DNA of 64,000 bases from Hyphomicrobiaceae bacterium (GCA_965223255.1 CBDCWA010000004.1:1611514-1675513); one strand, 5' to 3'. Numbered from the stretch's first letter, positions 9,978-23,965 are shown. A program made the numbers and translations. The notes: generated by a model from the sequence alone, not told the origin.

Positions 9978-10012
9978 CGGGCACGGCAGCAAAGTGTTGG
10001 AGGCAAAACCAT

Positions 10013-12547
10013 ATGAGTGTGAAGATTGACGTCCTCAGATCAGCTTTAAACCTGACGCGCCGCCGTTTCGTGCAACTGTCGGCGGCAAGTGCAGCCGCCG
10101 GTGCGGCAGGGCTTAAGCCGGAGCAGGCACAGGCGTTCGCCTATGAACCATATCCGACTGACGACGAGCTGACGACGATAGTAACAAGCTGCGCGCATAA
10201 TTGCGGATCGCGTCACGCACTCGTTGCACACAAGAAAGGTGATGTAATTGTCAGGCTGTCATCGGATGACGGACGCTATCAGAAGGATGGAGAATACGGC
10301 AAGGATACAGAGGACGAGCCGCAGGTGCGCGCCTGTCTGCGCGGACGGTCGTATCGTTCGCGGCTCTACTCGGCAGAGCGCCTGCTCCATCCCATGATTC
10401 GGGTCGGAGCGCGCGGTGAAGGGAAATTCAAACGCGCCTCCTGGGATACGGCGTTGGACTACATTGCCGAGCGCATAGTGAACATTAAGAATACCTATGG
10501 GCCAACTGCAATCCTGGACCAAAGCTATGCCGGCGCCTCATGGGGCGTCTTGCATCGCTCGGATCAGATCGAGGGGCTATTAGGGCGCTTTCTCGGCATT
10601 TTCGGTTGCCGCACGACGTCCTGGTCCGTGCCTTCGTATCAGGGAACGACTTTTTCGTCAGAAACGACCTTTGGCACGATTGAGGATGGAAATGAGGATG
10701 ATACGTTTGCCCACTCCAAGCTGATGATCATGTGGGGCTGGAATCCGGCCTACACATTTCATGGCGGCAATACATTCTACTATATGCGACTTGCAAAGCA
10801 GCGCGGATGCAAATTTGTCTTGGTGGACCCGCAATACACAGATTCAGCGGCCTCCTATGATGCCTGGTGGATTCCAATTCGGCCTAATACGGATGCGGCA
10901 ATGCTCGCGGCAATGGCCCACTATATCTTTGTCAACAAACTTCAAGATCAGAGCTTCATCAATCGCTTCTGCCTTGGCATGGACGCGGGCACAATGCCGG
11001 CATTCGCCACCGACCAGGAAAATTTCAGAGACTACATTCTTGGCAGGTATGACGGTCAACCTAAGTCTCCGGAATGGGCGCAAGAGATCTGTGGTGTAAA
11101 GGCCGATGACATCAAGAAGCTCGCGCGGATGTATGCGACGACAAAGCCAGCGGCATTGAAAGCAAGCTGGGCGCCAGGGCGATGCGCATACGGCGAACAG
11201 TATAGCAGGATGGCCGCGGCCCTTCAGGCAATGACCGGAAACATCGGTGTCTTGGGCGGCAGTGCTGAAGGCGTCGGCAAGGCCTGGAAAGCACAGGCTG
11301 CTGCGGGACCGGTAGATCAATACGCCAACATACATGCCGCTGCGATCAAGTCAGATAGATGGGCCGACTGCGTCCTTAATTACCCAAATGTGCGCCGCGA
11401 AGATGTCGGCTTGTGGCCGAAGTCGGGCGCCATGGATGGGGTAATACCGAATATTCGAGCGATTTGGTGGCAAGCGTCCGACTGGTTTAACCAGCTCCCC
11501 AACATCAACAAACAAATAGAAGCGATCCAAAAGCTTGATCTCGTCGTCTGCCAAGATTCGACCATTACGCCATCTGGGATATGGGCCGATGTGCTTCTGC
11601 CGGTTGCTACCCACTTCGAGCGCCACGATGTGGCCCTGCCTTGGTACAAGGGCCACTACTATATTCATAGGCCGAAGGTGATCGAGCCGCTTGGAGAAAG
11701 CAAGACCGACTGGCAGATTTTCACCGAGCTCGCGTTCCGACTCGGATTTGGCAAGACCATGAATCCACTTGCCTCCCGCGACTATTTCCACAACGATGAT
11801 GCGACCGACGAGGCGTATCTCAGGGATTGGTGGGAAAAGCGCGTCATGGGGTATCAAGGAGTTACGATGCCCTGGGATGAGTTCAAGAAACGCGGCATCT
11901 ACAAATTCCGACTGGACAAGCCCCATGTTGCCTTTCGCGAGCAGATTGAGGAGGGCAAACCATTCAAGACCACCTCCGGCAAGATCGAGATATTCTCTAT
12001 CAAACTATCGAACATTAAGGACTTTCGCCAAACGCAGTTTGGTTATCCTATCCCCGCAATCCCAAAATGGATTGAGCCATGGGAAGGCAGGCGCGATCCA
12101 AAGGTGCGCCAATATCCATTCCAGATGATCACGCCACACCCACGTTGGCGAACGCACTCAATATTCAACAACATCGGGTGGCTTCGGGAGACCTATGAGC
12201 AGGAAGTGACAATCAATGCGGACGATGCCGAGAAGCTCGGCATTAAGACAGGGGACAACGTCTACATCTGGAATGAGCGAGGCGCGACGGTGACACCAGC
12301 CTATGTGACACAACGACTGATGCCGGGCGTCGTTGTGCTTTACGAAGGCGCTTGGATGGATCGGGACACAAAGGGTATCGACCGGTCCGGCAATCCGGAT
12401 TTCCTGACCCTGGATGCGCCCAGCCCTGCAGGGGCATTTGCATACAATACGCTGTTGGTAAACATGCAGAAGACCGATCTGCCGCATCGACCCGGCTGGG
12501 ACAAGCTCGCAACGGCACGCAGCCACGTCTTCCGGCGTGACAATTGA
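10013..12547 (+). CDS. Tat-exported molybdopterin oxidoreductase catalytic subunit, DMSO reductase family (DmsA-like)
   Basis: GGAGG RBS. The twin-arginine motif is TRRRFVQLSAASAAAGA. The N-terminal FS0-type motif is C-AHN-C-GSR-H ... QVRACLRGRS. As far as I recall E. coli DmsA, the protein is collinear with it (e.g. RVGARGEGKFKRASW). Length is 844 aa. Confidence 0.85.
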   Translation: MSVKIDVLRSALNLTRRRFVQLSAASAAAGAAGLKPEQAQAFAYEPYPTDDELTTIVTSCAHNCGSRHALVAHKKGDVIVRLSSDDGRYQKDGEYGKDTEDEPQVRACLRGRSYRSRLYSAERLLHPMIRVGARGEGKFKRASWDTALDYIAERIVNIKNTYGPTAILDQSYAGASWGVLHRSDQIEGLLGRFLGIFGCRTTSWSVPSYQGTTFSSETTFGTIEDGNEDDTFAHSKLMIMWGWNPAYTFHGGNTFYYMRLAKQRGCKFVLVDPQYTDSAASYDAWWIPIRPNTDAAMLAAMAHYIFVNKLQDQSFINRFCLGMDAGTMPAFATDQENFRDYILGRYDGQPKSPEWAQEICGVKADDIKKLARMYATTKPAALKASWAPGRCAYGEQYSRMAAALQAMTGNIGVLGGSAEGVGKAWKAQAAAGPVDQYANIHAAAIKSDRWADCVLNYPNVRREDVGLWPKSGAMDGVIPNIRAIWWQASDWFNQLPNINKQIEAIQKLDLVVCQDSTITPSGIWADVLLPVATHFERHDVALPWYKGHYYIHRPKVIEPLGESKTDWQIFTELAFRLGFGKTMNPLASRDYFHNDDATDEAYLRDWWEKRVMGYQGVTMPWDEFKKRGIYKFRLDKPHVAFREQIEEGKPFKTTSGKIEIFSIKLSNIKDFRQTQFGYPIPAIPKWIEPWEGRRDPKVRQYPFQMITPHPRWRTHSIFNNIGWLRETYEQEVTINADDAEKLGIKTGDNVYIWNERGATVTPAYVTQRLMPGVVVLYEGAWMDRDTKGIDRSGNPDFLTLDAPSPAGAFAYNTLLVNMQKTDLPHRPGWDKLATARSHVFRRDN

Positions 12548-13233
12548 TGATTGGGGACACAGATATGGCAAAGGCGCCGATTGACAAGAAGAAGATAAAG
12601 AACGCGGTAAAACGCAAGAAACAAGACGTTTACAAGCCAGTGGTTCCCCACCAACAGCTCGGGTTTATCCATAACAATGTCGATTGTATCGGGTGCAGGG
12701 CTTGCGAGATTGCTTGTAAGGATAAGAATGGGTTAGCACCCGGACCAAGATTCCGCAGAGTACAATATATCGAGGGTGGCACATATCCCGAGGTGTTTGC
12801 ATACAAGGTAAATATGTCGTGCAATCACTGCGCTGAACCTGCCTGCCTTCCCGCCTGTCCCACCGGCGCGATCTACAAACGGAAAAAGGATGGTATTGTC
12901 GACATTGACTCGACGTTGTGCATCGGATGCCGGCGCTGCGAGGCCACATGCCCCTACGGCGCACCGCAATACATCCCTGATCAAAATATCGTTTCTAAGT
13001 GTAATATGTGCGTGGATGAGATTGATGCCGGTCGTAAGCCCTATTGCGTGATGGCCTGCATGATGCGCGTGCTCGATATTGGTCCGATAGACAAATTGCG
13101 TGATGGGACTTGGGACACTAAAGCCAAGGCAAAGCAGGAGAAAGTTGTACGTCAGGTGCAGAATATGGCGGATCCGGAGCTAACCAATCCATCGATCGTA
13201 TTCGTCGCGCATAGCAAGGGCAAAGTGAAATAG
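12544..13233 (+). CDS. 4x[4Fe-4S] ferredoxin-type electron-transfer subunit (DmsB-like)
   Basis: Four Cys clusters are present (CIGCRACEIAC, CNHCAEPACLPACP, CIGCRRCEATCP, CNMCVDE...CVMAC). The start overlaps the stop of the A subunit (TTG 12544 / ATG 12547). ATG 12565 with a GGGGA RBS is an alternative start. Confidence 0.85.
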   Translation: MMIGDTDMAKAPIDKKKIKNAVKRKKQDVYKPVVPHQQLGFIHNNVDCIGCRACEIACKDKNGLAPGPRFRRVQYIEGGTYPEVFAYKVNMSCNHCAEPACLPACPTGAIYKRKKDGIVDIDSTLCIGCRRCEATCPYGAPQYIPDQNIVSKCNMCVDEIDAGRKPYCVMACMMRVLDIGPIDKLRDGTWDTKAKAKQEKVVRQVQNMADPELTNPSIVFVAHSKGKVK

Positions 13234-13302
13234 GCGGTATGCTGCCGTGTTCGTGAACCACCCTGCGCCTTTTCCAATGCGCACTCACCTAGAGCGTTTC
13301 AA

Positions 13303-14130
13303 GTGCACAAACCTATCAGAGGTGCCCACCATGCTGGCCCTAGCCAGCATGCAGGGCGGGAGAATTCATTCGTGCAAGACCATGGACAAAGCGAAGCTGA
13401 ACTTCTTGCTGCTTTCAGAGAGTCGGTCGATGATGACCTGAAGTTGATTGCAGCACTGCACGATCGCGAGATCGATGCACCTGCGATCGCGCAGCTCAAA
13501 CAACTGAGGTTTCCCAGTGGCCTCGGTTTTAATCTGTCAAAGTCGGCAGCGAAACAAGCCCAACGACAAATGATCGATGCTCTTGCGGATCTGCCGGATG
13601 TACCCGATCAAGCGCTTCTCGATGAACTCGCCGTCGATTTTGCAGCAATCTATCTGACCTATCGCTACCGGGCCGCGCCAACGGAATCCGTGTGGCTCGA
13701 TAAGGACCATCTCGAGCGCCAGCAACCTATGTTTCAGACCCGAGCCGCCTACCGCCGAAGAGGTCTGAAGGTCGTCAACTGGAACGTGAGGTCTGAAGAT
13801 CACCTGGTCACTCAACTGCTTTTTGTGGCGCATTTGATTGGCGAATGTCGCGACGAAGTGGCGCTAGCGGATGCTGCAGCGTTCCTTGACCAGCACTTGC
13901 TCCGTTGGATTGACATCTTCGCCTTGAGTGTAGCGCAACGTTGCAGCGCTCGTTTTTATAGCGCCCTCGGCTCGCTGACAGCTGCCTATTTGGACGAGCT
14001 GCGCGATGTTCTCGCAGAGATCCTGGATGAACCGCGACCCCAAATCGTAACAGCCGATCAGATTCTGCAGCCACCCGACGAAGCCGAGCAGCACACTCCA
14101 ATCGCACCGGCCGTTGGTCCAAGCTGGTGA
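13303..14130 (+). CDS. TorD/DmsD-family redox enzyme maturation chaperone
   Basis: The EDHL-type motif (SEDHLVTQLLFVAHL) and helical layout are typical of the TorD family. It sits immediately after the A and B subunits. The GTG start is uncertain. Confidence 0.65.
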   Translation: MHKPIRGAHHAGPSQHAGRENSFVQDHGQSEAELLAAFRESVDDDLKLIAALHDREIDAPAIAQLKQLRFPSGLGFNLSKSAAKQAQRQMIDALADLPDVPDQALLDELAVDFAAIYLTYRYRAAPTESVWLDKDHLERQQPMFQTRAAYRRRGLKVVNWNVRSEDHLVTQLLFVAHLIGECRDEVALADAAAFLDQHLLRWIDIFALSVAQRCSARFYSALGSLTAAYLDELRDVLAEILDEPRPQIVTADQILQPPDEAEQHTPIAPAVGPSW

Positions 14131-14151
14131 TCAACCAGCGAATGGGTGCCG

Positions 14152-15534
14152 TTAGTCGCTGCGTTCACTAACGCTAAGTCCATGCTTCTTGAGCAACCTG
14201 TACGTGTTGCGCTCGCTTATTCCCAATACTTCAGCAATCCGCGAGCGATGTCCGCCGTATTTTACGACCAATCTAGCCAGGTAATCTCGCCGGATTTCCT
14301 CTAACGTTGGCTCGTGATCAAACATGAACGCCGCCGTTTCACAACGAGACGACTGAGCGCTGGGTGGAGCACTCAACCCCAGGTGCCGTGCTCGGATAGT
14401 AACGTCGTCGCCAGATACCAGGATTGCCCGCTCTATGACGTTTCTAAGCTCGCGAACATTGCCTGGCCATGAGTATGCGGTAAGCACCTCAATGGCATCC
14501 TTGCTCAATATCTTCTGCCGGGCGCGCTGAAAAGATCTGGTATCCAAAAACAGCTCTGACAGCACCGCGATGTCCTCGCGCCGCTGTCGCAGCGGTGGTA
14601 CACTGATCACAACTGTAGCCAAGCGATAGTAAAGGTCAGATCGAAATCGTCCCTCGTCGATGGATGCTATAAGGTCACGATTAGTTGCAGCGACGATGCG
14701 CGCGTCACTGATTATCTTCTGGGTGCCGCCGACGCGCCGAAATTCTCCGGTCTCAAGCACGCGCAGTAGTTTTGCCTGCATCGACGCAGGCAATTCGCCG
14801 ATTTCGTCAAGGAACAGTGTTCCGCCCTCGGCAATTTCGATCAAGCCCTGCTTGCGCCGGTCCGCTCCTGTAAATGCCCCTTTCTCGTGACCAAACAACT
14901 CCGATTCGAACAGCGTCTCTTGTAATGTCGTTGCATCCACAGGCACAAAGTTGGAATCCGCACGATCGCTCAGCTGGTGAATGGCTTTTGCTACAAGCTC
15001 CTTGCCGACGCCACTTTCGCCCTCGATTAGAACCGTTGAATCGCTTGGTGCGACCAACTCAATAAGATGTGCCATTTCCTCAAAAGCATTGCTCCGTCCA
15101 ACCATAATCTTCTTGATGTTGGGATTTAGTTGTTCTCGGCAATACTGGTAGCTGCGCCTCAAGGAGCTGTTTTCCAATGCTCGGCCAATAGCAAACTCCA
15201 GTTCGGACGGATTGATCGGTTTCGTCAGATAGTCAACCGCACCAGACCGGATAGCTTCGACTGCATGCCGAATGCTTCCGTACGCCGTCAGAACGAGCAC
15301 AGGGCATTGAGCTGAAAGTTCCGGCAAACACTGGATACCATCGATGTCGGGAAGTCTGATATCGAGGAGAGCAAGAGCGGGATCATGAGTCTCCAGCGTC
15401 ACCTTGGCTTCCTCCCATGAATAGACGCCAGTTGGCTGATAGCCCATCGCCCGCAGTTGTTCGATCAGAAAATGATTAAGTGCCTTGTCGTCCTCTATGA
15501 CAAGAAGATGCTTACCTTTCTTTCTTTGCGTCAT
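14152..15534 (-). CDS. sigma-54-dependent response regulator (NtrC family enhancer-binding protein)
   Basis: It has a receiver domain (LDIRLPDIDG), an AAA+ Walker A (GESGVGKE), the GAFTGA sigma-54 contact loop and a C-terminal Fis-type HTH. Confidence 0.9.
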   Translation of the reverse strand: MTQRKKGKHLLVIEDDKALNHFLIEQLRAMGYQPTGVYSWEEAKVTLETHDPALALLDIRLPDIDGIQCLPELSAQCPVLVLTAYGSIRHAVEAIRSGAVDYLTKPINPSELEFAIGRALENSSLRRSYQYCREQLNPNIKKIMVGRSNAFEEMAHLIELVAPSDSTVLIEGESGVGKELVAKAIHQLSDRADSNFVPVDATTLQETLFESELFGHEKGAFTGADRRKQGLIEIAEGGTLFLDEIGELPASMQAKLLRVLETGEFRRVGGTQKIISDARIVAATNRDLIASIDEGRFRSDLYYRLATVVISVPPLRQRREDIAVLSELFLDTRSFQRARQKILSKDAIEVLTAYSWPGNVRELRNVIERAILVSGDDVTIRARHLGLSAPPSAQSSRCETAAFMFDHEPTLEEIRRDYLARLVVKYGGHRSRIAEVLGISERNTYRLLKKHGLSVSERSD

Positions 15535-17435
15535 GATAGTTCTTTCGCTACTTCTGCAGAAGGCAATGTGACAACGAATCTAGTCCCCTCACCAACCACG
15601 CTCGTCACATCTAACCTGCCGCCGCTTCGTTTGACTATTTCTTGGCATATTGAAAGCCCAAGCCCTGTTCCGTGAACGCCGTCGGCACGTTTACTCCAGA
15701 AGGGATCGAATATTTTGGCGAGATCGCTCTTCTTGATCCCCACGCCAGTGTCCTCAAAGACCAGCTCGACCACATCTTCGCAGACTGAGCCCGAAACCAG
15801 CAGGCGCCCGCCATCAGGCATGGCATGCAGAGCGTTCTGTGCGATGTTTAGCACCATCATTCTCATCTCGCTGTCGGAGCCGATTGATCTGAGTTCACTC
15901 TCAAGATCCATCGATATGTCGACCTCTGACTTCAGTGCCTCAGCGTTGAGTAGGGAGAGAACCTCGAACACGACGTTGTTGAGATTTACAAGTTCGCGGT
16001 GCTCGCTTGCTGGTGCGCTAAGCTTCAAAAGACGCGACGTAACTTCTATGCAGCGCGTTATCTGATCTTCGATAATGTCAAGATACTTGCTTGCCTTCTC
16101 GTCCCGACCCTCCCGTAGAGCTCTTTTCGCTGAGTCGAAGCCCAAAAGTATGGACGCAAGAGGGTTGTGAATCTCGTGTGCAACACCCGCGGCCAGGAAG
16201 CCAATTTCCGACAGCCGCTGCTCTTGCGATAGCCGCACGTCCTTGCTCAGGTCTCTAATGACCTCCACAACGAATTTTTTTTGCGTGTCGTCAATAGTGA
16301 TTTCAAGCAGCGCTGCTGAGACCTCGACCGGGATTTCTTTCTCATCGGCGCTCACATGAGAATGCCGACAAGTCAAGACCTGCCCTCCTTTCTGCAGTTC
16401 ATGCAGCGGACAGCTGACCAAGCTCGCTGGGCAAGGCGATTCACGAGAATGGCTGGACCAATAGCAGGGTCGCTGTACCACCTCAGACCGCGCGCGATGC
16501 TGTTGTTCGCAGAATGCGCGGTTAGCCTTGACGACCTGATAGTTCATGTCGATCACGCGCACTCCATCGGGCATTATGTCGATCAGGTCCTGCAAATACC
16601 GCTCTCTGGTCTCTATATTGTGTACAGCTTGAGCGATACGAGCGGACATGTCGTTAAAGGCACGTCCAAGCCGCCCAATCTCATCGGAGCTTTTTAGCGG
16701 CACACGGTGACCCAGTTGGCCCAGCGACATCTTATCCGCTGCCTCGGTCAGTCCTTTCACAGGTGCGAGCACGAACCAGTTAAGCAGAAATCCGATGCCA
16801 CCAATGGTAGTCAGCACGACTGCTATTCCGGCACCACTCAGCATCAATACTGCAAACATTGTGTCGCGTCTGATGTTCGTTGCGTCATAGTCAACGACGA
16901 GAATTCCGTTTATTGGGTGGGTATCAATCTGGCCATGGCATTTAGTGCATGGGCCGCGGTTGCGGACCGGGTTTATGCTGCGCAGAATGTCACCAGCAAC
17001 GGCGTCCGCAACGAAGGCCGAACGGGGCCCGTGCCCTTTTATTGTTGCCTTGCAGTCTGGGCACAACTCACCTGCTTCGAGATCAAAACGTCGGCCAAGC
17101 TGTATCTTGTTGCTCGCAAATCTGACTTCACCATTCGGCGCAAGAATCATGACACCGGAAATATTCTCCTGTTCACCCAATCGTTCGACCATTTTCCTCA
17201 GGCCAACGATGTCACGATTGAGCATCGCATTCTCAAGCCCCAGCTGCAGCAGGCGGTTGACCTCCGTGGATGCTGCGCTGCGTTCCCTCAGGATTTGATC
17301 ACGATAGGAGAGAATGACCAACGCAAGGAAACAGATCGATGCAAACGTTAGGCTTGCGACAAGGATCAGGGTTATTTTCCGCCTTAGGCTTGCAGCAGAC
17401 CACCTGGCTAGGTCATTCCATAACTGTCCCATCAT
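15531..17435 (-). CDS. sensor histidine kinase: periplasmic Cys/haem-motif domain, HAMP, PAS, HisKA, HATPase
   Basis: Two TM helices flank a ~150-aa loop containing CPDCK and CTKCH. It also has a HAMP domain, a Cys-rich PAS-like domain, the H-box GVAHEIHNPL, and G-boxes DTGVGI and GTGLGLS. There are 4-nt overlaps with both neighbouring genes. Confidence 0.9.
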   Translation of the reverse strand: MMGQLWNDLARWSAASLRRKITLILVASLTFASICFLALVILSYRDQILRERSAASTEVNRLLQLGLENAMLNRDIVGLRKMVERLGEQENISGVMILAPNGEVRFASNKIQLGRRFDLEAGELCPDCKATIKGHGPRSAFVADAVAGDILRSINPVRNRGPCTKCHGQIDTHPINGILVVDYDATNIRRDTMFAVLMLSGAGIAVVLTTIGGIGFLLNWFVLAPVKGLTEAADKMSLGQLGHRVPLKSSDEIGRLGRAFNDMSARIAQAVHNIETRERYLQDLIDIMPDGVRVIDMNYQVVKANRAFCEQQHRARSEVVQRPCYWSSHSRESPCPASLVSCPLHELQKGGQVLTCRHSHVSADEKEIPVEVSAALLEITIDDTQKKFVVEVIRDLSKDVRLSQEQRLSEIGFLAAGVAHEIHNPLASILLGFDSAKRALREGRDEKASKYLDIIEDQITRCIEVTSRLLKLSAPASEHRELVNLNNVVFEVLSLLNAEALKSEVDISMDLESELRSIGSDSEMRMMVLNIAQNALHAMPDGGRLLVSGSVCEDVVELVFEDTGVGIKKSDLAKIFDPFWSKRADGVHGTGLGLSICQEIVKRSGGRLDVTSVVGEGTRFVVTLPSAEVAKELS

Positions 17436-17908
17436 TGCGATGCCAGCCGAATGATAAAGCTCTCAGTAGGAACAAGATCCGTATCAATCCGGCAAAGCCT
17501 TTCGGTTTGGTCAGCAAGATCATCCTGGAAGACGGTGATCGGAACGACGACCGGCACCAGCCATTCCCGCGCAGCAAATGCCTTAAGCCAGTCCCGCCGC
17601 TCCTCAGAGGCCTTTGTCGCGAGAATGGATTCCGCGTTATGCACAACGAGCCCGCCACGATTCGATTTCTTTTCGATGTACGCGGTCAGAGCCGATAGTG
17701 GAACCTGGCCGGCCTCCCATCCCAGGGGGAGAAGTTTTTCCGCCCGAAAGTCTATGAAGGTGAAGTCAAGAGCATTCGTCATGGCGCGTATTAACTCTGG
17801 CCGGTACTCGGGAAAAACGACGAAGAAACCTCCACGTCCAGCAGCCTGGGCAATCATCTCGGCAACCGGCCTTATCCAAGGTAATAGAGGCTCTCGAGAC
17901 TGCATCAT
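17432..17908 (-). CDS. hypothetical protein co-transcribed with the kinase
   Basis: The track ORF starts at 17962. I prefer ATG 17908 because it forms an ATGA start/stop overlap with the upstream ferredoxin gene. The stop overlaps the kinase start. I recognised no motif. Confidence 0.55.
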   Translation of the reverse strand: MMQSREPLLPWIRPVAEMIAQAAGRGGFFVVFPEYRPELIRAMTNALDFTFIDFRAEKLLPLGWEAGQVPLSALTAYIEKKSNRGGLVVHNAESILATKASEERRDWLKAFAAREWLVPVVVPITVFQDDLADQTERLCRIDTDLVPTESFIIRLASQ

Positions 17909-18993
17909 CGCAACACTTGAAACAGTTTGTCGTAATGCTGCGTCTTCAGGCAGATCCGACATCGCAACTCGGCCGATCCCTGGCTCTCAGGCATCAAAAA
18001 CACAGTTCCGCACGAGCGGCATTGCGCAGAATCAAGTTGAATGGATGTCGGGTCGCCGCGCTGCCAGGACTTGACGGCGACTGCATCAGTATCACAAACG
18101 TCAGCGCACAGCCTGCAGCCGGTGCAATGTGACGGAGCGATCTTGTAGGCGGGCCGGCCCGCGTGATCAGTCACAAGTGTGATTGCATGAGTTGGGCATA
18201 TGCGAATACAGGCATTGCACCCGACGCAGTTCGCAGTATCAATTTCGGGAAGATAGGGGTTCAAAGGCATCCCGCTTTCGCCGGCTGGAAGTCGCTCCGC
18301 TGCCGGAACCTGACGTTGTGTCTTCAAGTTGGAATCCACGTCCACCAACCTGCTAACGGCCACAAAAAAACCGCGCCGGGATGCACGCATCGTTGTTGAA
18401 CGTATAGTATGCCATTCGCCAGGTGTGTACTCAGTGATGCTGAATTCATCCATGCCTCGGTCCGCCCAGAGACGTTGGAGGTTGATAACCGCTTGATCAA
18501 ACTGATGACTCAAACCACGCTCGCAGCTCAGGCATGCTTCGCGGCTCACGATCAGCTGTCGCAAACCTTGTGCATATAGTTGAGCCAGTTCATCTATTCC
18601 GATCGAATTCAGGCAAGGTCGTACACCAGGTCCACCTTCTTCGACGGCGACGGAACAGGCAAACAGTCCAATCTTGTCATCGTCATAAGATCTCGCAGCG
18701 TTGGCCAGTGGCAATTCAATCGCAGTCTGCGGGCAGACCGGCACACAGATGCCACATCCATCGCAAGCTTGTTCGTCAAATCCGAGAGCATCCTCCTCTA
18801 AGACCCACGCGGCACGTGGACAAGCATCAACGCAGTCTTGGCAACTAGCGTTGGACACGATCGCATGAACGCAACGATCAGCATCAATAACTGGAAGGTC
18901 TGCGGGCAGATGCGACAGCTTATCGCTTCGCGGAAGGGCAAAGCTGCGTCCTGGCAACCCAGACTCAGTCGTGTCCGAACGATTCTTCGACAT
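17905..18993 (-). CDS. polyferredoxin-like protein (two 2x[4Fe-4S] dicluster domains + C-terminal CxxC...CxxC ribbon)
   Basis: Motifs are CQDCVDACP, CDGCGICVPVCP, CVGCNACIRICP, CTGCRLCADVCD, and CRSCG...CRIC. Start is either ATG 18993 (MSKNRS) or the upstream start at 19083. Confidence 0.75.
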   Translation of the reverse strand: MSKNRSDTTESGLPGRSFALPRSDKLSHLPADLPVIDADRCVHAIVSNASCQDCVDACPRAAWVLEEDALGFDEQACDGCGICVPVCPQTAIELPLANAARSYDDDKIGLFACSVAVEEGGPGVRPCLNSIGIDELAQLYAQGLRQLIVSREACLSCERGLSHQFDQAVINLQRLWADRGMDEFSITEYTPGEWHTIRSTTMRASRRGFFVAVSRLVDVDSNLKTQRQVPAAERLPAGESGMPLNPYLPEIDTANCVGCNACIRICPTHAITLVTDHAGRPAYKIAPSHCTGCRLCADVCDTDAVAVKSWQRGDPTSIQLDSAQCRSCGTVFLMPESQGSAELRCRICLKTQHYDKLFQVLR

Positions 18994-19148
18994 CACGTTA
19001 TCGCTTCCGGCGCCCGGTTGCCCTCGCTCGCGCTCGCTGCGCGCACCTACTCGCGTGGCAGCCGACCCGGCGGGCACGGGCACTTCCGACGATTATGAAA
19101 GACAGCTATTCCAACCCGAGAAACAGCCGCCACGACACGCTGTCGTGA

Positions 19149-19164
19149 TGCAACTCCTGTGCCA
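19149..19164 (-). promoter_or_regulatory. sigma-54 (-24/-12) promoter TGGCAC-AGGAG-TTGCA (minus strand)
   Basis: This is an exact consensus match on the minus strand. It lies 66-156 nt upstream of the polyferredoxin start candidates. Confidence 0.8.
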
Positions 19165-20049
19165 TCACCAATACTCTTTGGCGTCCTGTGTCGACGGCTC
19201 GGCAGATAGCCTTTCAGCGCCGTGACTTGGGCAGGAGGAGCACTGAGGCTGACAAATTGTCATGGGTCGGAGGCGCTGAATATGCCAGTCTGTCAGGTCT
19301 GCGCCAAGCATGTTTGATGCTAGTCTCGGATCGACCATATCGAGTGTCTGGAGTCTCTCCGAAAGAGGGGTCCAATAGATCGGTCTTAGCTATGCCCGAC
19401 AACTGGAGGGCAAATATTTGGGGGCAGACCAACCATCGGATATGCGACGACATTTTGCCGAGTTAGCGAAAGCTTCGCAGCAAGAACGCACGAGCTTCTG
19501 TGCTGCCCACTGAGAGCGGACATCACCCGGCGTGGGGCTGACATCGCGGTGGGGGCAAACGAGAAAGTCACACTGAAGCATTGGCTTACAGCCATGGATG
19601 GATGAGCTGGACCGATCGGTACAATTGTAGCTAATGTCCCACTTGGCGTTCAGGACCAGTTCCATCACCAGCAAGTGCCGGCAGTTAGTCTCGATTTGAT
19701 GAGAATTCCTCGTCAATATCGATGAGCCGGCGCCAGAGCATACAAGCGCGGTGCACGAACACGACGCCAGATCAGACACTTGCACTTCCTTTCCATACGG
19801 CCCCGGCACGCTTCTTTTGATCGAGTCGGGAATCAAATGCCATACGCATCGTAGGCTTTGCTCATGGAGCGCGGGCAGTCATGCCAAGTATTTGGCAAGA
19901 TTTGACGCACATCAAAAACTACGCGCAAGACTTGCATGGAACTTGCATGGAAAGAGCAAATTGCCTGCAGAAGTGGAGAGAGCCGTTGGTCCATGATGGT
20001 GATGTGCAGGCCCGTCGCAAAGGGACGGCTCATTTTAGGAGGAAGTAAG

Positions 20050-21896: not shown

Positions 21897-22586
21897 TCAC
21901 GCCGCGACCAGTTCTTTAGCTCCTTCCACGCCGAGATTGTCGCGCAGCGTTCTTACGGTCGCCTCGGAGCGGAACACATTGCGCTTCTGCAGGATCGGCA
22001 CGACGTAGTCAACGAAATCATCAAGACCGGTTGGGAAGCAGCCGATCATTAGGTTGAATCCATCGGCCGCGCCGTCGCGCCACTGCGCCTCGACGAGATC
22101 GGCCACCTGCTCGGGCGTACCGACCAACTGCCGATGGCCGCCGACATTGTGGTATACTATTTTACGTACTGTCAGCTTTTCCACTGTCGCCAACCGGAGA
22201 GCTGCTGCCCGGACTCCTTCGGATGCGCTGAACTGATCGTTGGCGAGGGTCTTGTCGACTGGCATCGGCTCGTCAAACTTCAGGTCTTCAACCTTGCAAC
22301 CAACACGGCGTGCAAGCTTTTTCAACTCCGCCTGGCCGCCCAGTTCATCGAGCTTTTCCTTGCGCGCCCGGGCCTCCGCCTCCGTAGAGCCGATCACGGA
22401 CATCAGTCCTGGCAGAACCTTTATCCGGTCTGGATCACGACCAAATCTGGCGGCATGCCTGCGGATATCGGTGCAGAACTCCGTCGCCGCGTCTGTCGTG
22501 TTCTGCGCCGTAAACACGACGTCGGCGATGCGCGCAGCCAGATTGCGGCCCAGACCACACGAACCGTCGGCCACGAAGGGCATCAC
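21897..22586 (-). pseudogene. C-terminal half of an NtaA/SnaA/DszA-type flavin-dependent (LLM) monooxygenase; N-terminal half absent
   Basis: The 229-aa ORF matches only the distal half of a ~440-aa family. Only ~200 nt of non-coding DNA separates it from the next gene. Confidence 0.5.
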
Positions 22587-22785
22587 TATGCGGTTAAGGG
22601 GCCACTGACATTGCCTCGGACGCCACTGGGCCGCACACTTCTGTTCCAGGCCCTTTGTTAAGAGTCTTGACTTGTATCAAGTCGATGGTTTGCTCATCGC
22701 CATCGGAGGATTGACCCAAAATTAGTCGGCCTAAGCCTCTAACGTGTGAACAAGTCTCGGTCCTGGGCAAGCCTCTGGAGCCACA

Positions 22786-23625
22786 CTAACTGACGGGATC
22801 CGGGTCGCGCACGGTCACCCGCCGCATCATACGGCGCTTGTCCGGTGAAAAGTACGTCCGCGCGTGTATCGAGCAGCGATTGTCCCACATCATCATGTCG
22901 CCAACCGTCCAGACATGTTCGTAGACGAACTCAGGGCTCTCGATGTGATCAAACAGATAGTTGAGTATTTCGTCGCTCTCTTGGCGAGCCAAGCCATCAA
23001 TCGACAGCGTCATGAGGCGATTAACGAAGAGTGCCTTTCTGCCGGTCTCCGGGTGCGTGCGAACGATGGGGTGGACCCAATGCGGTGCTTCTGTGTTGAT
23101 CTCGTCCGGCCGGAGCGTTGGATTGCCGCTATAATCGTAGTAATTCAGCGCTCTTAGACCCTCCAATCGCCTCTTCCAATCTACGGACAAAGCGTCATAA
23201 GCCATGGCACAATTTGCAAATAACGTATTTCCCCCTTCATCCGGCACTTCAATCGCGTATAGCGTTGCCCCAAGGCAGGGGTGTTCGTAGTAGCACTGGT
23301 CGTAGTGGAACATCATCTCGCCGTCCTCGAGCGCGGTAGGCCGGCCAGTGTCGTTGGCATTGGTGATCATCATCACGGCAGGATGGTCTCCACCGACAGC
23401 CTGGCCGGTTCGGACGAGTTCCAAGTCTCCGAAATAGCGGCAGAACCGTTCTTGATCGTCCTCCGTGAGATCTTGCCCCGGAAATAAGATGATCACGTTG
23501 TCGAGCAGAGCCTGCTTAATCTCACGAACCGCCTCCTGGTCTAGGTCATGGCCGAGATCGACACCTTCAATTCGGGCACCGAGCGCGTCCGAGAGCCTGT
23601 CAAAGGTGATCCGTCGCCTATTCAT
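22786..23625 (-). CDS. TauD/TfdA-family Fe(II)/2-oxoglutarate dioxygenase
   Basis: It has an HxD motif (FHYDQ) and the distal WDNRCSIHAR motif. I prefer the start at MNRRR (23625). Confidence 0.8.
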   Translation of the reverse strand: MNRRRITFDRLSDALGARIEGVDLGHDLDQEAVREIKQALLDNVIILFPGQDLTEDDQERFCRYFGDLELVRTGQAVGGDHPAVMMITNANDTGRPTALEDGEMMFHYDQCYYEHPCLGATLYAIEVPDEGGNTLFANCAMAYDALSVDWKRRLEGLRALNYYDYSGNPTLRPDEINTEAPHWVHPIVRTHPETGRKALFVNRLMTLSIDGLARQESDEILNYLFDHIESPEFVYEHVWTVGDMMMWDNRCSIHARTYFSPDKRRMMRRVTVRDPDPVS

Positions 23626-23965
23626 GCCAAGCCCCTCTTCATGTGGTTCAACAGTCCGCGGTTCCAATTCCAGCAATCCTTCAAAAAGAACTACCAAATT
23701 CTCTGTGGTATGGCCCCTGAAGACGGGGCTATCGACAGAATTGCTGTGTCAGATTATGGCGCATAATGTCGTATTGCCGGCCCACAACGCACCGGCCGGC
23801 CTCCGCCCGATCCATCAACTGATAAGATACCTTGGTCGGTCGTACGTGTATCGCTTCCGCTTCCATTTGATCCGAATACATTCGCCAAAGTTTCACTCGC
23901 TGATCGGTCGCTTTTCGCAAGCTTTGCTGGCGCCGTCGATGGCTACATCTAGGCCAGGTAGTATT

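What the first reader, a model, noticed from the sequence alone, without database searches (positions are those of the whole stretch)
16935..17063. Sensor kinase periplasmic loop carries CxxCK and CxxCH motifs (candidate covalent haem sensor)
Between the two TM helices the kinase has CPDCK (aa 125-129) and CTKCH (aa 163-167). CxxCH is the covalent haem c attachment motif, and CxxCK is the rare variant known from NrfA. A haem-c periplasmic sensor domain would suit a redox or oxidant signal for this module.
Basis: partly seen in the sequence, partly recalled or inferred. Interest (0 to 1): 0.55.

Follow-up and report, generated by a model that had tools for sequence, protein, structure and literature searches.

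The report
Haem-c sensor kinase guarding methionine-repair operon
The kinase's outward-facing loop is a divergent member of a known family of sensor domains that carry one covalently bound haem. The "CxxCK" is only the decayed remnant of a second haem site, and the kinase sits in a widespread, unannotated gene module that looks like an oxidant defence built around a methionine-rich protein.

Summary
CPDCK (aa 125-129) and CTKCH (aa 163-167) lie in the periplasmic loop of a 634-aa histidine kinase (15531..17435, minus strand).

- **CxxCH site: well supported as a haem c site.** It is kept in 79/80 near-full-length homologues and 80/80 genomic orthologues. A family profile matches the haem-c sensor domains of Geobacter GSU0582 and GSU0935 (E 4.6e-7; hhalign 96.6%). 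The AlphaFold model (pLDDT 89.6) is a single-Cache fold with CxxCH on the short helix between the fourth and fifth strands. Met71 (78/80) aligns with Met60, the exchangeable distal haem ligand of GSU0935.
- **CxxCK idea: not supported.** At that position homologues have CxxCH (21/80), CxxC plus any residue (22/80), or nothing (36/80). Lys occurs only in this protein and one orthologue. It is a degenerate second haem site.
- **Context gives the likely signal.** The kinase and its sigma-54 regulator always neighbour an operon for a secreted 26%-Met repeat protein, c-type cytochromes, a DMSO-reductase-like molybdoenzyme and a TorD chaperone (44/44 long loci). That operon has sigma-54 promoters and a shared upstream palindrome.

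The most likely reading is a haem-c redox, oxidant or NO sensor driving a methionine redox-cycling defence. The signal itself is inferred. The domain is a known kind; the system is undescribed in the papers I could search.

The parts
15531..17435 (-). Sensor histidine kinase, 634 aa: TM1, haem-c single-Cache domain, TM2, HAMP, PAS, HisKA, HATPase
   Evidence: ORF and translation. Pfam: HAMP 218-268, PAS 280-397, HisKA 414-473, HATPase_c 523-626. 1209 cluster representatives match the N-terminal profile, most about 620-640 aa long.
17307..17375 (-). TM1 (aa 21-43). In the model it runs on without a break into periplasmic helix alpha1.
   Evidence: Hydropathy peak. AlphaFold helix covers model residues 2-53, which is protein residues 21-72. 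Coordinates checked.
16857..17306 (-). Periplasmic sensor domain (aa 44-193): single-Cache (PAS-like) fold of the haem-c type
17223..17225 (-). Met71, candidate exchangeable distal haem ligand, at the end of helix alpha1 in the motif LENAML
   Evidence: Conserved in 78/80. Aligns with chain residue M26, which is Met60 of GSU0935 and GSU0582 (numbering offset of 34 taken from His144/His143 as given in PMC8396549).
17049..17063 (-). Site 1, CPDCK (aa 125-129): degenerate second haem-binding motif in the long loop between the second and third strands of the model; probably a disulfide
   Evidence: 80 representatives: CxxCH 21, CxxC plus another residue 22, CxxCK 1 (this protein), absent 36. 80 genomic loci: absent 35, CxxCH 13, CxxC plus D/P/T/G/N/V/R/A 31, CxxCK 1. 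The two Cys are always kept or lost together.
16935..16949 (-). Site 2, CTKCH (aa 163-167): predicted covalent haem c attachment site with His167 as proximal ligand
   Evidence: C163 80/80, C166 80/80, H167 79/80. 80/80 loci. Aligned column for column with the CxxCH of GSU0582 and GSU0935. Lies on the short helix at model residues 142-148, between the fourth and fifth strands.
16788..16856 (-). TM2 (aa 194-216)
   Evidence: Hydropathy; AlphaFold helix 167-196.
16410..16466 (-). Conserved Cys triad in the cytoplasmic PAS domain (C324-x10-C335-x6-C342-P): a possible second metal or redox input
   Evidence: C324 71/80, C335 67/80, C342 71/80, P343 74/80, H329 49/80.
14152..15534 (-). Sigma-54-dependent response regulator (receiver, AAA+ sigma-54 activator, HTH); its start overlaps the kinase stop
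   Evidence: Pfam Sigma54_activat 2.9e-67 and Response_reg 2.1e-20. Found next to the kinase in 74-75 of 80 loci.
17432..17962 (-). 176-aa protein of unknown function, just upstream of the kinase on the same strand
   Evidence: No Pfam or NCBIfam match. Homologue at the same position in 24/80 loci.
17905..19083 (-). Poly-ferredoxin (several 4Fe-4S motifs), first gene of the kinase operon
   Evidence: Pfam Fer4 families. Present in 45/80 loci.
19149..19164 (-). Perfect sigma-54 -24/-12 box upstream of the ferredoxin, 176-aa, kinase and regulator genes
   Evidence: 3 perfect TGGCAC-N5-TTGCW boxes in the window against 0.09 expected.
19250..19262 (.). Palindrome TGACAATTTGTCA, 86 nt upstream of that box: candidate enhancer (activator-binding) site
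   Evidence: The consensus TGnCAAwTTGnCA occurs 32 times in 1.2 Mb of related loci (about 0.6 expected). In 17 loci it lies 90-250 nt upstream of a sigma-54 box.
6097..6109 (.). Second copy of the palindrome (TGCCAATTTGTCA), 197 nt upstream of the sigma-54 box at 6306
6306..6321 (+). Perfect sigma-54 box upstream of the Met-rich protein and reductase operon
   Evidence: Boxes at the same relative position in related loci.
6469..7425 (+). Secreted methionine-rich repeat protein, 318 aa, 26% Met and 33% Gly, with GMYGMGGMRGM repeats
   Evidence: Sequence and translation. The Pfam 'Collagen' hit is an artefact of the three-residue periodicity. GM-repeat ORFs occur in 59/80 related loci and on plasmid pEJ01.
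7630..8220 (+). 196-aa membrane-anchored protein of unknown function
   Evidence: No Pfam match. N-terminal hydrophobic segment.
8213..9046 (+). Monohaem cytochrome c (one CxxCH)
   Evidence: Pfam Cytochrom_C. CIACH at aa 69.
9117..9977 (+). Tetrahaem c-type cytochrome (four CxxCH)
   Evidence: Pfam multihaem families. Four motifs. Present in 50/80 loci.
10013..12547 (+). Tat-exported catalytic subunit of a DmsA/DorA-like molybdoenzyme
   Evidence: NCBIfam dmsA_ynfE 1.8e-184, below its cut-off. Closest solved structures are the Rhodobacter DMSO reductase 1eu1 (1.2e-71) and TorA. Twin-arginine N-terminus. 72-90% identical in relatives and present in 44/44 loci of at least 17 kb.
12544..13233 (+). 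DmsB-like four-cluster iron-sulfur subunit
   Evidence: NCBIfam DMSO_dmsB 2e-58.
13303..14130 (+). TorD/DmsD-family chaperone
   Evidence: Pfam Nitrate_red_del 5.8e-19. NCBIfam TorD 5.6e-20.
5075..5090 (+). Third perfect sigma-54 box, 46 nt upstream of ORF 5136..5618 (cytochrome c'-family four-helix protein without CxxCH)

Best explanation
Residues 44-193 of the kinase form a periplasmic single-Cache (PAS-like) sensor domain of the haem-c type. This is the family first defined by the Geobacter chemoreceptor domains GSU0582 and GSU0935 (Pfam PF21563; 'sCache_heme' together with Tll0287-like PF11845).

**Proposed mechanism (all steps inferred from homology)**
1. The cell's cytochrome c maturation system attaches one haem to Cys163 and Cys166.
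2. His167 is the proximal ligand. Met71, at the end of helix alpha1, is the exchangeable distal ligand. In the model alpha1 is one continuous helix with TM1.
3. As in GSU0582 and GSU0935, Met binds the reduced haem. It comes off when the haem is oxidised or when a small ligand such as NO binds. Oxidation of Met71 itself to the sulfoxide would have the same effect.
4. The resulting movement of alpha1 and TM1 passes through HAMP and the Cys-rich PAS domain to the kinase core.
5. The kinase phosphorylates the adjacent sigma-54 activator.
6. The activator binds the palindrome TGnCAAwTTGnCA and fires sigma-54 promoters. One precedes its own operon. The other precedes the operon for the secreted Met-rich protein, two c-type cytochromes, the DmsAB/DorA-like reductase and TorD.

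**Proposed role of the module.** It is most plausibly a periplasmic methionine redox cycle. The Met-rich protein would be oxidised sacrificially and re-reduced by the molybdoenzyme. That makes the physiological signal an oxidant or redox stress: reactive chlorine or oxygen species, or NO/peroxynitrite.

**CPDCK.** It is not a Lys-haem site. It is a second CxxCH motif that has lost its His. Its two Cys probably form a disulfide.

**Shown here:** motifs, conservation, homology, fold, topology, synteny and cis-elements.

**Inferred:** haem occupancy, Met71 ligation, the nature of the signal, the substrate of the reductase and which activator uses the palindrome.
For: **Haem site**
- CxxCH is kept in 79/80 representatives (both Cys 80/80) and 80/80 genomic loci.
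- The family profile matches haem-c sensor structures: 3B47 at E 4.6e-7 and 3B42 at E 9.2e-5, with the CxxCH columns aligned. hhalign gives 96.6%.
- 36/41 members match PF21563. P0134 and P0153 score above its gathering cut-off.
- The motif P-x2-N-x3-CxxCH-x(4-8)-NG is shared with GSU0582.

**Fold**
- AlphaFold model pLDDT 89.6, with CxxCH on a short helix between the fourth and fifth strands.
- Its place in the chain matches GSU0582, although the preprint's own strand numbering puts that insertion between beta3 and beta4 (PMC12889525), so the two numbering schemes were not reconciled.

**Distal ligand**
- Met71 is kept in 78/80 and aligns with Met60 of GSU0935.
- In those proteins Met60 binds the reduced haem, is released on oxidation, and is replaced by NO or CO (PMC8396549).

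**Maturation capacity**
- Two c-type cytochrome genes sit in the same module.

**Output**
- The sigma-54 regulator is adjacent in 74-75 of 80 loci.
- The DmsA-like gene is present in 44/44 loci of at least 17 kb.
- The window has 3 perfect sigma-54 boxes against 0.09 expected.
- The palindrome occurs 32 times against about 0.6 expected, and in 17 loci it lies 90-250 nt upstream of a sigma-54 box.

**Signal**
- Met-rich GM-repeat proteins occur in 59/80 loci.
- Precedent: MrpX plus a periplasmic Met sulfoxide reductase scavenge hypochlorite (PMC4436054).
- Precedent: the abstract of PMC7402097 (titled 'Reduction of Protein Bound Methionine Sulfoxide by a Periplasmic Dimethyl Sulfoxide Reductase') describes bacterial molybdoenzymes that reduce Met sulfoxide.
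- An anchored MsrA gene lies just upstream.

**Site 1**
- States across the family are listed.
- A rough NJ tree puts a clade of 17 two-haem forms on the side of the midpoint root opposite the window's clade. The window protein sits in a clade of CxxC-x forms.
- An extra haem motif is already known in GSU0591, GSU0599, Adeh_2011 and Adeh_3383 (PMC3831638).
Against: - No experiment exists. Haem occupancy is inferred from homology.
- The window protein alone does not reach any Pfam threshold for the sensor domain (PF11845 E 0.21; PF21563 not reported). Pairwise BLASTP against GSU0582 finds nothing. Membership rests on profile searches.
- AlphaFold does not model haem, and I could not read the coordinates, so the Met71-His167 geometry is unchecked.
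- Sensing-type sCache_heme proteins were reported to behave as NO sensors, not oxygen sensors (PMC12889525). Many hosts belong to genera known from the literature as denitrifiers, such as Dechloromonas, Thiobacillus and Hyphomicrobium. NO may therefore be the true signal.
- Met-rich repeats can also bind Cu(I), so the Met-rich protein may not be an antioxidant.
- The reductase could be a respiratory S- or N-oxide reductase, induced by substrate or by anoxia.
- A purely vestigial site 1 does not explain why both Cys are retained as a pair in 44/80 members.
- The activator that binds the palindrome is not identified.
Confidence: 0.6

Rival explanations
1. NO sensor. The haem-c Cache domain binds nitric oxide, displacing Met71. 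The kinase then induces the module as a nitrosative or peroxynitrite stress response, or in step with denitrification, rather than in response to chlorine or oxygen oxidants.
For: The 2026 preprint on sCache_heme reports that members fused to signalling modules have the properties of NO sensors, not oxygen sensors (PMC12889525). GSU0582 and GSU0935 bind NO in both redox states, replacing Met60 (PMC8396549). Hosts include Dechloromonas, Azonexus, Thiobacillus denitrificans, Hyphomicrobium and Sedimenticola, genera known from the literature as denitrifiers.
Against: Nothing in the regulated operon is a known NO-detoxifying enzyme. The cytochrome c'-family ORF with its own sigma-54 box lacks a CxxCH. 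The Met-rich protein and the S-oxide-type reductase point to methionine oxidation. This is the same mechanism as the best explanation with a different ligand, so the two are not fully exclusive.
Confidence: 0.25
2. Respiratory control. The DmsAB/DorA-like enzyme is a terminal reductase for an S- or N-oxide or an oxyanion. The haem-c domain reports the redox state of the periplasmic cytochrome pool or anoxia, or binds the substrate, so that the reductase is made when it is useful for energy conservation.
For: The closest solved relatives of the catalytic subunit are the respiratory DMSO and TMAO reductases. NCBIfam's best match is the DMSO/selenate family. The operon carries its own cytochromes for electron supply. 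A distant two-haem relative of the kinase sits beside NrfD, 4Fe-4S and multihaem genes. GSU0582 and GSU0935 are thought to sense redox potential.
Against: This does not explain why a secreted 26-33% Met repeat protein is the first gene of the operon in 59/80 loci. It also does not explain the neighbouring MsrA. 72-90% identity of the enzyme across three proteobacterial classes suggests one fixed substrate.
Confidence: 0.15
3. The domain carries two haems, one on CTKCH and one on CPDCK with Lys129 as proximal ligand, as in NrfA.
For: CxxCK is a genuine haem c motif in NrfA. Shewanella can mature it without a dedicated lyase (PMC12285233). The position is a true haem site (CxxCH) in 21/80 and 13/80 relatives. 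Both Cys are retained.
Against: Lys occurs in only 1/80 representatives (this protein) and 1/80 loci. The closest orthologues have R, T, P or D after the CxxC. About 45% of orthologues in the same operon context lack the motif altogether. Engineered CxxCK motifs were not haem-loaded even by the dedicated lyase NrfI. No NrfE/F/G- or NrfI-like gene was seen among the window ORFs scanned. There is no similarity to NrfA.
Confidence: 0.04
4. Thiol switch. The retained CxxC pair at site 1 is a redox-active disulfide/dithiol that itself senses oxidants, alone or together with the haem.
For: The two Cys are always kept or lost as a pair in 44/80 members, even after the His is lost. CxxC is a classic redox-active motif. 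The module context is oxidant-related.
Against: 35-36 of 80 orthologues in the same operon context have no site 1 at all, so it cannot be the essential sensor. From general knowledge, periplasmic Cys pairs are normally oxidised constitutively by DsbA.
Confidence: 0.1
5. No cofactor. The Cys and His residues are structural or bind a metal, and the domain binds a small-molecule ligand like ordinary Cache domains.
For: Most Cache domains have no cofactor. The window protein alone does not reach the Pfam thresholds for the haem families.
Against: The exact CxxCH is almost invariant (79/80 representatives, 80/80 loci). It is aligned with the crystallographically haem-bound motif of GSU0582 and GSU0935, and the distal Met equivalent is also conserved.
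Confidence: 0.03

Closest known systems
GSU0582 / GSU0935 periplasmic sensor domains of Geobacter sulfurreducens chemoreceptors (PDB 3B47, 3B42; Pfam PF21563 Mcp40H-20_sensor)
   Same: Homologous by profile (E 4.6e-7; hhalign 96.6%). Same place in the protein, between two TM helices. Same PAS-like/Cache fold. Aligned CxxCH. Aligned distal Met (Met60 there, Met71 here). Shared motif P-x2-N-x3-CxxCH...NG.
   Different: The output is a HAMP-PAS histidine kinase paired with a sigma-54 activator, not a chemoreceptor. About 19% identity, undetectable pairwise. An extra loop of about 30 residues carries a degenerate second haem motif. Tied to one conserved operon.
sCache_heme / DUF3365 / Tll0287-like (PF11845; PDB 5B82; Deshpande et al. 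2026 preprint, PMC12889525)
   Same: Extracytoplasmic single-Cache domain with CxxCH on a short inserted helix late in the fold. Found fused to kinases, chemoreceptors and GGDEF/EAL proteins. Signalling members bind NO.
Two-motif members of the same sensor family (GSU0591, GSU0599, Adeh_2011, Adeh_3383; Londer 2006, cited in PMC3831638)
   Same: A second CxxCH in the same domain. In this kinase family it lies about 38 residues before the invariant one, in 21/80 representatives and 13/80 loci.
   Different: In the window protein the second motif has lost its His (CPDCK). I did not align the named Geobacter and Anaeromyxobacter proteins, so whether the extra motif sits at the same position is not tested.
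NrfA active-site CxxCK haem
   Same: The five-residue string only.
   Different: No homology to NrfA. The Lys is not conserved. No dedicated lyase seen. The motif is dispensable in orthologues.
MrpX / YedY1 (MsrP) / SigF-NrsF hypochlorite defence of Azospira suillum (PMC4436054)
   Same: A secreted methionine-rich protein encoded together with a periplasmic molybdoenzyme and a dedicated envelope-stress regulator. A sacrificial methionine redox cycle is the suggested logic.
   Different: The reductase is DmsAB/DorA-type (bis-MGD) with c-type cytochromes, not YedYZ (sulfite-oxidase fold). The Met-rich protein is a 200-500-aa G-M-x repeat, not a small charged peptide. The regulator is a haem-c kinase plus sigma-54 activator, not an ECF sigma and anti-sigma pair.
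HprSR (E. coli reactive-chlorine-sensing two-component system controlling msrPQ)
   Same: A two-component system that switches on a periplasmic Met sulfoxide reductase. From memory of El Hajj et al. 2022 (not read here), its sensor uses a Met residue.
   Different: From general knowledge, not tested here: HprS is a haem-free CusS-like kinase paired with an OmpR-type regulator. Here the regulator is an NtrC-type sigma-54 activator.
PcrS/PcrR/PcrP of the perchlorate reduction island
   Same: A membrane kinase plus sigma-54 activator next to a DMSO-reductase-family operon, in some of the same genera.
   Different: The PcrS periplasmic domain is about 250 aa, matches no domain in COG or Pfam, and PcrS has no PAS domain (PMC3884062). 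It is a different family.

Membership tests
Haem-c Cache/PAS-like sensor domains (PF21563 Mcp40H-20_sensor; sCache_heme with PF11845) | Canonical CxxCH conserved in the sensor domain (about 99% in the family according to PMC12889525) | tested here: met
   CTKCH at aa 163-167. C/C/H kept in 80/80, 80/80 and 79/80 representatives and in 80/80 loci.
Haem-c Cache/PAS-like sensor domains (PF21563 Mcp40H-20_sensor; sCache_heme with PF11845) | Sequence homology to structurally characterised members | tested here: met
   Profile A2 against the PDB: 3B47 E 4.6e-7, 3B42 E 9.2e-5. hhalign 96.6%, E 6.9e-10. 36/41 members hit PF21563, best 1.8e-9. P0134 and P0153 score above its gathering cut-off.
Haem-c Cache/PAS-like sensor domains (PF21563 Mcp40H-20_sensor; sCache_heme with PF11845) | The window protein on its own passes the Pfam gathering threshold | tested here: not met
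   PF21563 not reported at E up to 1. PF11845 E 0.21, 12.4 bits against a cut-off of 24.1. BLASTP against GSU0582 not significant. It is a divergent subfamily found only by profile.
Haem-c Cache/PAS-like sensor domains (PF21563 Mcp40H-20_sensor; sCache_heme with PF11845) | Single-Cache fold with CxxCH on a short helix inserted between core strands late in the fold (beta3 and beta4 in the preprint's numbering) | tested here: met
Haem-c Cache/PAS-like sensor domains (PF21563 Mcp40H-20_sensor; sCache_heme with PF11845) | Extracytoplasmic location, required for covalent haem attachment | tested here: met
   Flanked by two hydrophobic helices, with basic residues before TM1.
Haem-c Cache/PAS-like sensor domains (PF21563 Mcp40H-20_sensor; sCache_heme with PF11845) | Distal Met on the N-terminal helix (Met60 of GSU0935) | tested here: met
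   Met71 kept in 78/80 and aligned with chain residue M26, which is Met60.
Haem-c Cache/PAS-like sensor domains (PF21563 Mcp40H-20_sensor; sCache_heme with PF11845) | Covalently bound haem actually present | not testable with these tools
   Needs expression with ccm genes, haem stain, pyridine haemochrome and mass spectrometry.
NrfA-type CxxCK (Lys-ligated) haem site | Lys of CxxCK conserved among homologues | tested here: not met
   Lys in 1/80 representatives (this protein) and 1/80 loci. Otherwise H, D, P, G, T, A, N, V, R, L or a deletion.
NrfA-type CxxCK (Lys-ligated) haem site | Homology to NrfA or octahaem nitrite reductases | tested here: not met
   No such Pfam, NCBIfam or PDB match.
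NrfA-type CxxCK (Lys-ligated) haem site | Dedicated lyase (NrfEFG or NrfI) encoded by the organism | tested here: inconclusive
   None among the window ORFs scanned. The rest of the genome is not available, and Shewanella manages without one.
MrpX/MsrP-type periplasmic methionine redox-cycling defence (context of the kinase) | Secreted methionine-rich protein encoded in the operon | tested here: met
   6469..7425: signal peptide, 26% Met. Found in 59/80 loci and on pEJ01 at 28% Met.
MrpX/MsrP-type periplasmic methionine redox-cycling defence (context of the kinase) | MsrP/YedY-family (sulfite-oxidase fold) reductase with MsrQ/YedZ | tested here: not met
   The reductase is a bis-MGD DmsA/DorA-type enzyme with DmsB and c-type cytochromes.
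MrpX/MsrP-type periplasmic methionine redox-cycling defence (context of the kinase) | Reduction of protein Met sulfoxide and induction by reactive chlorine species | not testable with these tools
   Needs enzymology and reporter assays.

The most novel reading that the evidence does not exclude
This kinase family is a periplasmic oxidant sensor. Its covalently bound haem c and exchangeable Met71 ligand are the sensing element: haem oxidation, Met71 displacement, or oxidation of Met71 to the sulfoxide. It controls, through a sigma-54 activator and the enhancer palindrome TGnCAAwTTGnCA, a previously undescribed and horizontally mobile defence module. In that module a secreted poly-(Gly-Met-x) protein is sacrificially oxidised and then re-reduced by a cytochrome-fed DmsAB/DorA-type molybdoenzyme. 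This would give a haem-c Cache kinase its first defined physiological signal and regulon. It would also be a second, independent invention of the MrpX/MsrP strategy.
Probability: 0.35. Interest if true: 0.75.

Novelty: new variant of a known kind. Interest (0 to 1): 0.55.

Why it matters
Haem-c Cache (PAS-like) sensor domains have been known structurally since 2008 and were shown in 2026 to be a large family. For the kinases that carry them, though, I found no physiological signal or regulon described in the papers read here.

This kinase subfamily is locked to one conserved operon. I found it in at least 418 species-representative genomes of Alpha-, Beta- and Gammaproteobacteria, and on a conjugative plasmid. 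The operon's first product is an extreme methionine-rich secreted protein, and its enzyme is a DMSO-reductase-type molybdoenzyme. That turns "what does the haem sense?" into a direct experiment: a reporter on a defined sigma-54 promoter, tested with oxidants or NO.

It also points to an unannotated, widespread envelope defence or methionine redox cycle. Every gene in it is currently labelled generically or as hypothetical.

The decay series at site 1 (CxxCH, then CxxC-x, then deletion) is a clear natural example of haem-site loss within one orthologous group.

Tried and rejected
**Searches that found little**
1. A single-sequence Pfam/NCBIfam scan of the kinase gave no sensor-domain family (LapD_MoxY_N at E 0.041 only).
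2. A single-sequence PDB search gave only a weak, short match to the MamP magnetochrome motif (E 0.33). I treated it as a CxxCH-context coincidence.
3. The word-index homologue search found only 4 fragments and 17 with a profile. The exhaustive profile search was needed.
4. The first AlphaFold run with 5 sequences was poor (pLDDT 64). The 41-sequence alignment fixed it.
5. A genome scan with the 41-sequence alignment failed because it had no conserved stretch to search with. It was rerun with the 5-sequence alignment.

**Ideas considered and rejected**
6. PcrS/PcrR of the perchlorate island as the identity. Rejected: PcrS has a different, larger periplasmic domain and no PAS domain.
7. Arr/Arx, Ttr, Psr and type II DMSO-reductase identities for the molybdoenzyme. 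Rejected on NCBIfam scores.
8. The Pfam 'Collagen' label for ORF 6439..7425. Rejected as an artefact of G-M-x periodicity.
9. The 'cytochrome c prime' ORF as an NO-binding haem protein. Weakened because it has no CxxCH.

**Other dead ends**
10. A search for 10-12-mers shared by all three sigma-54 promoter regions found nothing. The palindrome is shared by two of the three.
11. Six full-text literature searches and the four papers opened for this question (52; 54; 56) found no description of the module combining a Met-rich protein, a DmsAB-like enzyme and a haem kinase.

Full report
**1. The observation**

The minus-strand ORF 15531..17435 encodes a 634-aa histidine kinase.
- CPDCK is aa 125-129 (17049..17063). 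CTKCH is aa 163-167 (16935..16949). Together they span exactly the reported interval.
- Two hydrophobic segments, aa 21-43 and 194-216, flank them.
- Pfam places HAMP (218-268), PAS (280-397), HisKA (414-473) and HATPase_c (523-626) after the second segment.
- The loop itself matched no Pfam or NCBIfam family on its own.

**2. Homologues and conservation**

A word-index search found only four fragments. In their alignment, C163-x-x-C166-H167-G168 was invariant, but the first motif read CPDCP, CPGCE, HPGV and RLGM.

An exhaustive profile search of 1.84 billion representatives gave much more:
- 1209 hits at E up to 1e-3 and 402 at E up to 1e-10.
- Most full-length hits are kinases of about 620-640 aa.

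In 80 near-full-length members:
- C163 and C166 are kept in 80/80 and H167 in 79/80.
- Also nearly invariant: R152 (79), N159 (77), G177 (80), D182 (79) and M71 (78).
- Site 1 is CxxCH in 21, CxxC plus a non-His residue in 22, CxxCK in one (this protein), and absent, mostly by deletion, in 36.
- The two Cys are always present or absent together.

In 80 orthologous loci from species-representative genomes:
- Site 2 is CxxCH in 80/80.
- Site 1 is absent in 35 and CxxCH in 13.
- In the other 32, CxxC is followed by D (10), P (8), T (4), G (3), N (2), V (2), R (1), A (1) or K (1).
- The closest orthologue (64% identity, a Hyphomicrobiaceae MAG) has CPNCR.

A rough neighbour-joining tree puts a clade of 17 two-haem forms on the side of the midpoint root opposite the window's clade. 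The window protein falls inside a clade of CxxC-x forms. The tree implies about 13 changes of state.

The CxxCK reading therefore fails its own refutation test, because homologues do not conserve the Lys. The CxxCH reading passes.

**3. What the domain is**

A profile of 41 sensor domains (A2) matches the periplasmic sensor domains of the Geobacter chemoreceptors GSU0582 (3B47, E 4.6e-7) and GSU0935 (3B42, E 9.2e-5).
- The CxxCH columns are aligned. The motif P-x2-N-x3-CxxCH...NG is shared.
- hhalign gives 96.6% probability.
- Pairwise BLASTP sees nothing.
- 36 of 41 members match Pfam PF21563 (Mcp40H-20_sensor), and 30 weakly match PF11845 (Tll0287-like). The window protein reaches only E 0.21 on PF11845.
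- Two members (P0134, P0153) score above the PF21563 gathering cut-off.

With the deeper alignment AlphaFold gives pLDDT 89.6 and pTM 0.80. The order of elements is:
1. a long helix continuous with TM1;
2. a second helix;
3. two strands;
4. a loop of about 30 residues carrying site 1;
5. two strands;
6. a short helix carrying CxxCH;
7. a fifth strand;
8. TM2.

Fold searches agree:
- Foldseek gives the same picture.
- 3B42 and 3B47 score poorly there, which is expected because they crystallised as domain-swapped dimers (PMC8396549).
- The position of the CxxCH helix in the chain corresponds to the haem-bearing insertion described for "sCache_heme" by Deshpande et al. (PMC12889525). That paper numbers the flanking strands beta3 and beta4. 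In my model the helix follows the fourth strand, and I did not reconcile the two numbering schemes.

**4. The distal ligand**

In the HMM alignments, profile position M52 (protein Met71, in the motif LENAML) pairs with chain residue M26 of both structures.
- The chain-to-native numbering offset is 34, since chain H110 and H109 correspond to His144 and His143. M26 is therefore Met60.
- Met60 ligates the reduced haem, leaves on oxidation, and is displaced by NO or CO (PMC8396549).
- Met71 sits at the end of the helix that continues from TM1 in the model. Ligand switching could therefore be passed directly to the membrane helices. This coupling is inferred.

**5. Site 1**

An additional haem motif is already recorded for some family members: GSU0591, GSU0599, Adeh_2011 and Adeh_3383 (PMC3831638).
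- In this kinase family the extra CxxCH lies about 38 residues upstream of the invariant one.
- The window protein has the His-less version.
- CxxCK haems need NrfEFG or NrfI, and engineered CxxCK motifs are not haem-loaded even by NrfI, although Shewanella's general system copes (PMC12285233).
- I saw no such lyase among the window ORFs scanned.
- Retention of the Cys pair suggests a disulfide, structural or possibly redox-active.
- Its absence from about 45% of orthologues in the same operon context shows it is not essential.

**6. Surroundings**

- The kinase gene overlaps a sigma-54-dependent response regulator (14152..15534).
- It is preceded on the same strand by a 176-aa unknown protein and a poly-ferredoxin.
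- On the other strand lie:
  - a monohaem cytochrome c and a tetrahaem cytochrome c;
  - a Tat-exported DmsA/DorA-like molybdoenzyme, whose closest solved relatives are the Rhodobacter DMSO reductase 1eu1 (1.2e-71) and TorA;
  - a DmsB-like subunit and a TorD-family chaperone.
- The window has three perfect sigma-54 boxes (TGGCAC-N5-TTGCA) against 0.09 expected: 5075 (+), 6306 (+) and 19149 (-).
- The box at 19149 precedes the ferredoxin and kinase operon.
- The box at 6306 precedes a gene (6469..7425) for a signal-peptide protein made of GMYGMGGMRGM-type repeats, 26% Met and 33% Gly. Its Pfam "Collagen" hit is an artefact.

**7. Conservation of the module**

- Of 80 related loci, all 44 of at least 17 kb carry the DmsA-like gene beside the kinase, at 72-90% identity.
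- 59 loci encode a GM-repeat protein with 25-37% Met in its richest 60-residue stretch.
- Sigma-54 boxes recur upstream of that gene.
- The palindrome TGACAATTTGTCA lies 86 nt upstream of the box at 19164. A one-mismatch copy lies 197 nt upstream of the box at 6306.
- Its consensus occurs 32 times in 1.2 Mb of related loci, against about 0.6 expected. In 17 loci it lies 90-250 nt upstream of a sigma-54 box. From general knowledge, that is the usual geometry for an enhancer-binding activator.
- The same module sits on the conjugative plasmid pEJ01 of Rhodobacter xanthinilyticus, with every gene annotated generically.
- Hosts span Hyphomicrobiaceae, Rhodobacterales, Dechloromonas, Azonexus, Thiobacillus, Sedimenticola and sulfur-oxidising symbionts.
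- The window most likely comes from a member of the Hyphomicrobiaceae. This is inferred from the best-matching loci.

**8. How it most likely works**

- A secreted Met-rich protein encoded with a periplasmic molybdoenzyme recalls MrpX/YedY1 of Azospira. There hypochlorite oxidises MrpX and the reductase is proposed to regenerate it (PMC4436054).
- The abstract of PMC7402097, titled [quoted passage not shown], describes bacterial molybdoenzymes that reduce Met sulfoxide.
- An anchored MsrA lies just upstream.

I therefore propose that the haem-c domain reports periplasmic oxidant or redox stress, or NO, through His167/Met71 ligand switching. The kinase would then switch on, through the sigma-54 activator, a methionine redox-cycling defence together with its own operon.

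My confidence differs by part:
- about 0.85 that CTKCH carries a haem in a GSU0582-type domain;
- about 0.9 that CPDCK is not a Lys-haem site;
- about 0.8 that the kinase and regulator control the adjacent operons;
- about 0.4-0.5 that the signal is an oxidant rather than NO (about 0.25) or respiratory redox or substrate (about 0.15).

**9. Comparison and novelty**

The domain is a divergent member of a known family. The two-motif variant is also known.

What I did not find in the papers searched and read (papers read) is twofold:
- this kinase subfamily's fixed link to an operon for a Met-rich protein and a DmsAB-like enzyme;
- its sigma-54 promoter and enhancer architecture.

PcrS is a different family. 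From general knowledge, HprS and the SigF/NrsF system are unrelated regulators that serve analogous ends.

I rate the system a new variant of a known kind.

Noticed in passing
window 6469..7425 (+): Gene for a secreted 318-aa protein made almost entirely of G-M-x repeats (GMYGMGGMRGM), 26% Met and 33% Gly. Pfam mislabels it 'Collagen'. Similar GM-repeat proteins (25-37% Met in the richest stretch) are the first gene of the reductase operon in 59/80 related loci and on plasmid pEJ01. It resembles the sacrificial antioxidant MrpX but is much larger and differs in composition. Cu(I) binding is an alternative role.
   Followed up: partly
window 8213..14130 (+), and L001-L081: Operon of cytochrome c, tetrahaem cytochrome, Tat-exported DmsA/DorA-like molybdoenzyme, DmsB and TorD, with no DmsC membrane anchor. 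The catalytic subunit is 72-90% identical across Alpha-, Beta- and Gammaproteobacteria. It always neighbours the haem kinase (44/44 long loci). Its substrate is unknown; protein Met sulfoxide is proposed.
   Followed up: partly
window 5075..5090 (+), 6306..6321 (+), 19149..19164 (-): Three perfect sigma-54 -24/-12 boxes (0.09 expected). They precede a cytochrome c'-family ORF, the Met-rich protein and reductase operon, and the ferredoxin and kinase operon.
   Followed up: yes
window 6097..6109 and 19250..19262; 32 copies in L001-L080: Palindrome TGnCAAwTTGnCA upstream of two of the three sigma-54 boxes. It is about 56-fold enriched in related loci and typically lies 90-250 nt upstream of a sigma-54 box. 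It is a candidate binding site for the sigma-54 activator.
   Followed up: partly
window 16410..16466 (-), kinase aa 324-342: The cytoplasmic PAS domain carries a conserved C-x10-C-x6-C-P triad (71, 67 and 71 of 80), with His329 and His360 frequently conserved. This could be a metal, Fe-S or thiol-based second input. Distant relatives (P0156, P0158) also have a Cys-rich stretch here.
   Followed up: partly
window 5136..5618 (+): 160-aa exported protein matching the cytochrome c' family (Cytochrom_C_2, 6e-11) but with no CxxCH motif. It has its own perfect sigma-54 promoter 46 nt upstream.
   Followed up: partly
window 4080..4787 (+): MsrA (peptide methionine sulfoxide reductase) with a hydrophobic N-terminal extension of about 50 residues, suggesting a membrane-anchored or exported enzyme. 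It lies directly upstream of the sigma-54-controlled genes. An msrA homologue is within 10 kb of the kinase in 8/80 loci.
   Followed up: partly
window 17432..17962 (-) and 17905..19083 (-): A 176-aa protein with no family match and a 392-aa poly-ferredoxin lie just upstream of the kinase on the same strand, behind the sigma-54 box at 19149. The ferredoxin is conserved in 45/80 loci and the 176-aa protein in 24/80. Their role, whether electron supply, enzyme maturation or signalling, is unknown.
   Followed up: no
L081 (NZ_CP017782.1, plasmid pEJ01 of Rhodobacter xanthinilyticus) 6215..17197: The whole module (Met-rich protein, cytochrome, molybdoenzyme, Fe-S subunit, TorD, ferredoxin, haem kinase, sigma-54 regulator) lies on a conjugative MOBP/MPF_T plasmid next to an IS1380 transposase. 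This shows it is horizontally mobile. This host and two other cultured carriers (Zhengella sp. ZM62, Dechloromonas sp. CZR5 and ARDL1) could be used for experiments.
   Followed up: partly
L005 1639..1974 and L081 6215..6571: A small exported protein with the motif DDQGAWFTPF...GPYD(I/L)R lies between the sigma-54 box and the Met-rich gene in these two loci. It has no counterpart at that position in the window.
   Followed up: no
L082 5270..8475 (Bryobacterales MAG): A distant two-haem member of the kinase family (P0158) is divergently placed next to NrfD-like, 4Fe-4S, multihaem cytochrome and cNMP-binding genes. More distant members of the family may therefore control other periplasmic redox complexes.
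   Followed up: no
window 21897..25144 (-) and 27440..37094: The rest of the window encodes TauD and luciferase-like monooxygenases (sulfonate-type), OmpW, LigB-type ring-cleavage dioxygenases, an aromatic-ring hydroxylase and a MarR regulator. These are ordinary catabolic genes with no evident link to the kinase.
   Followed up: no
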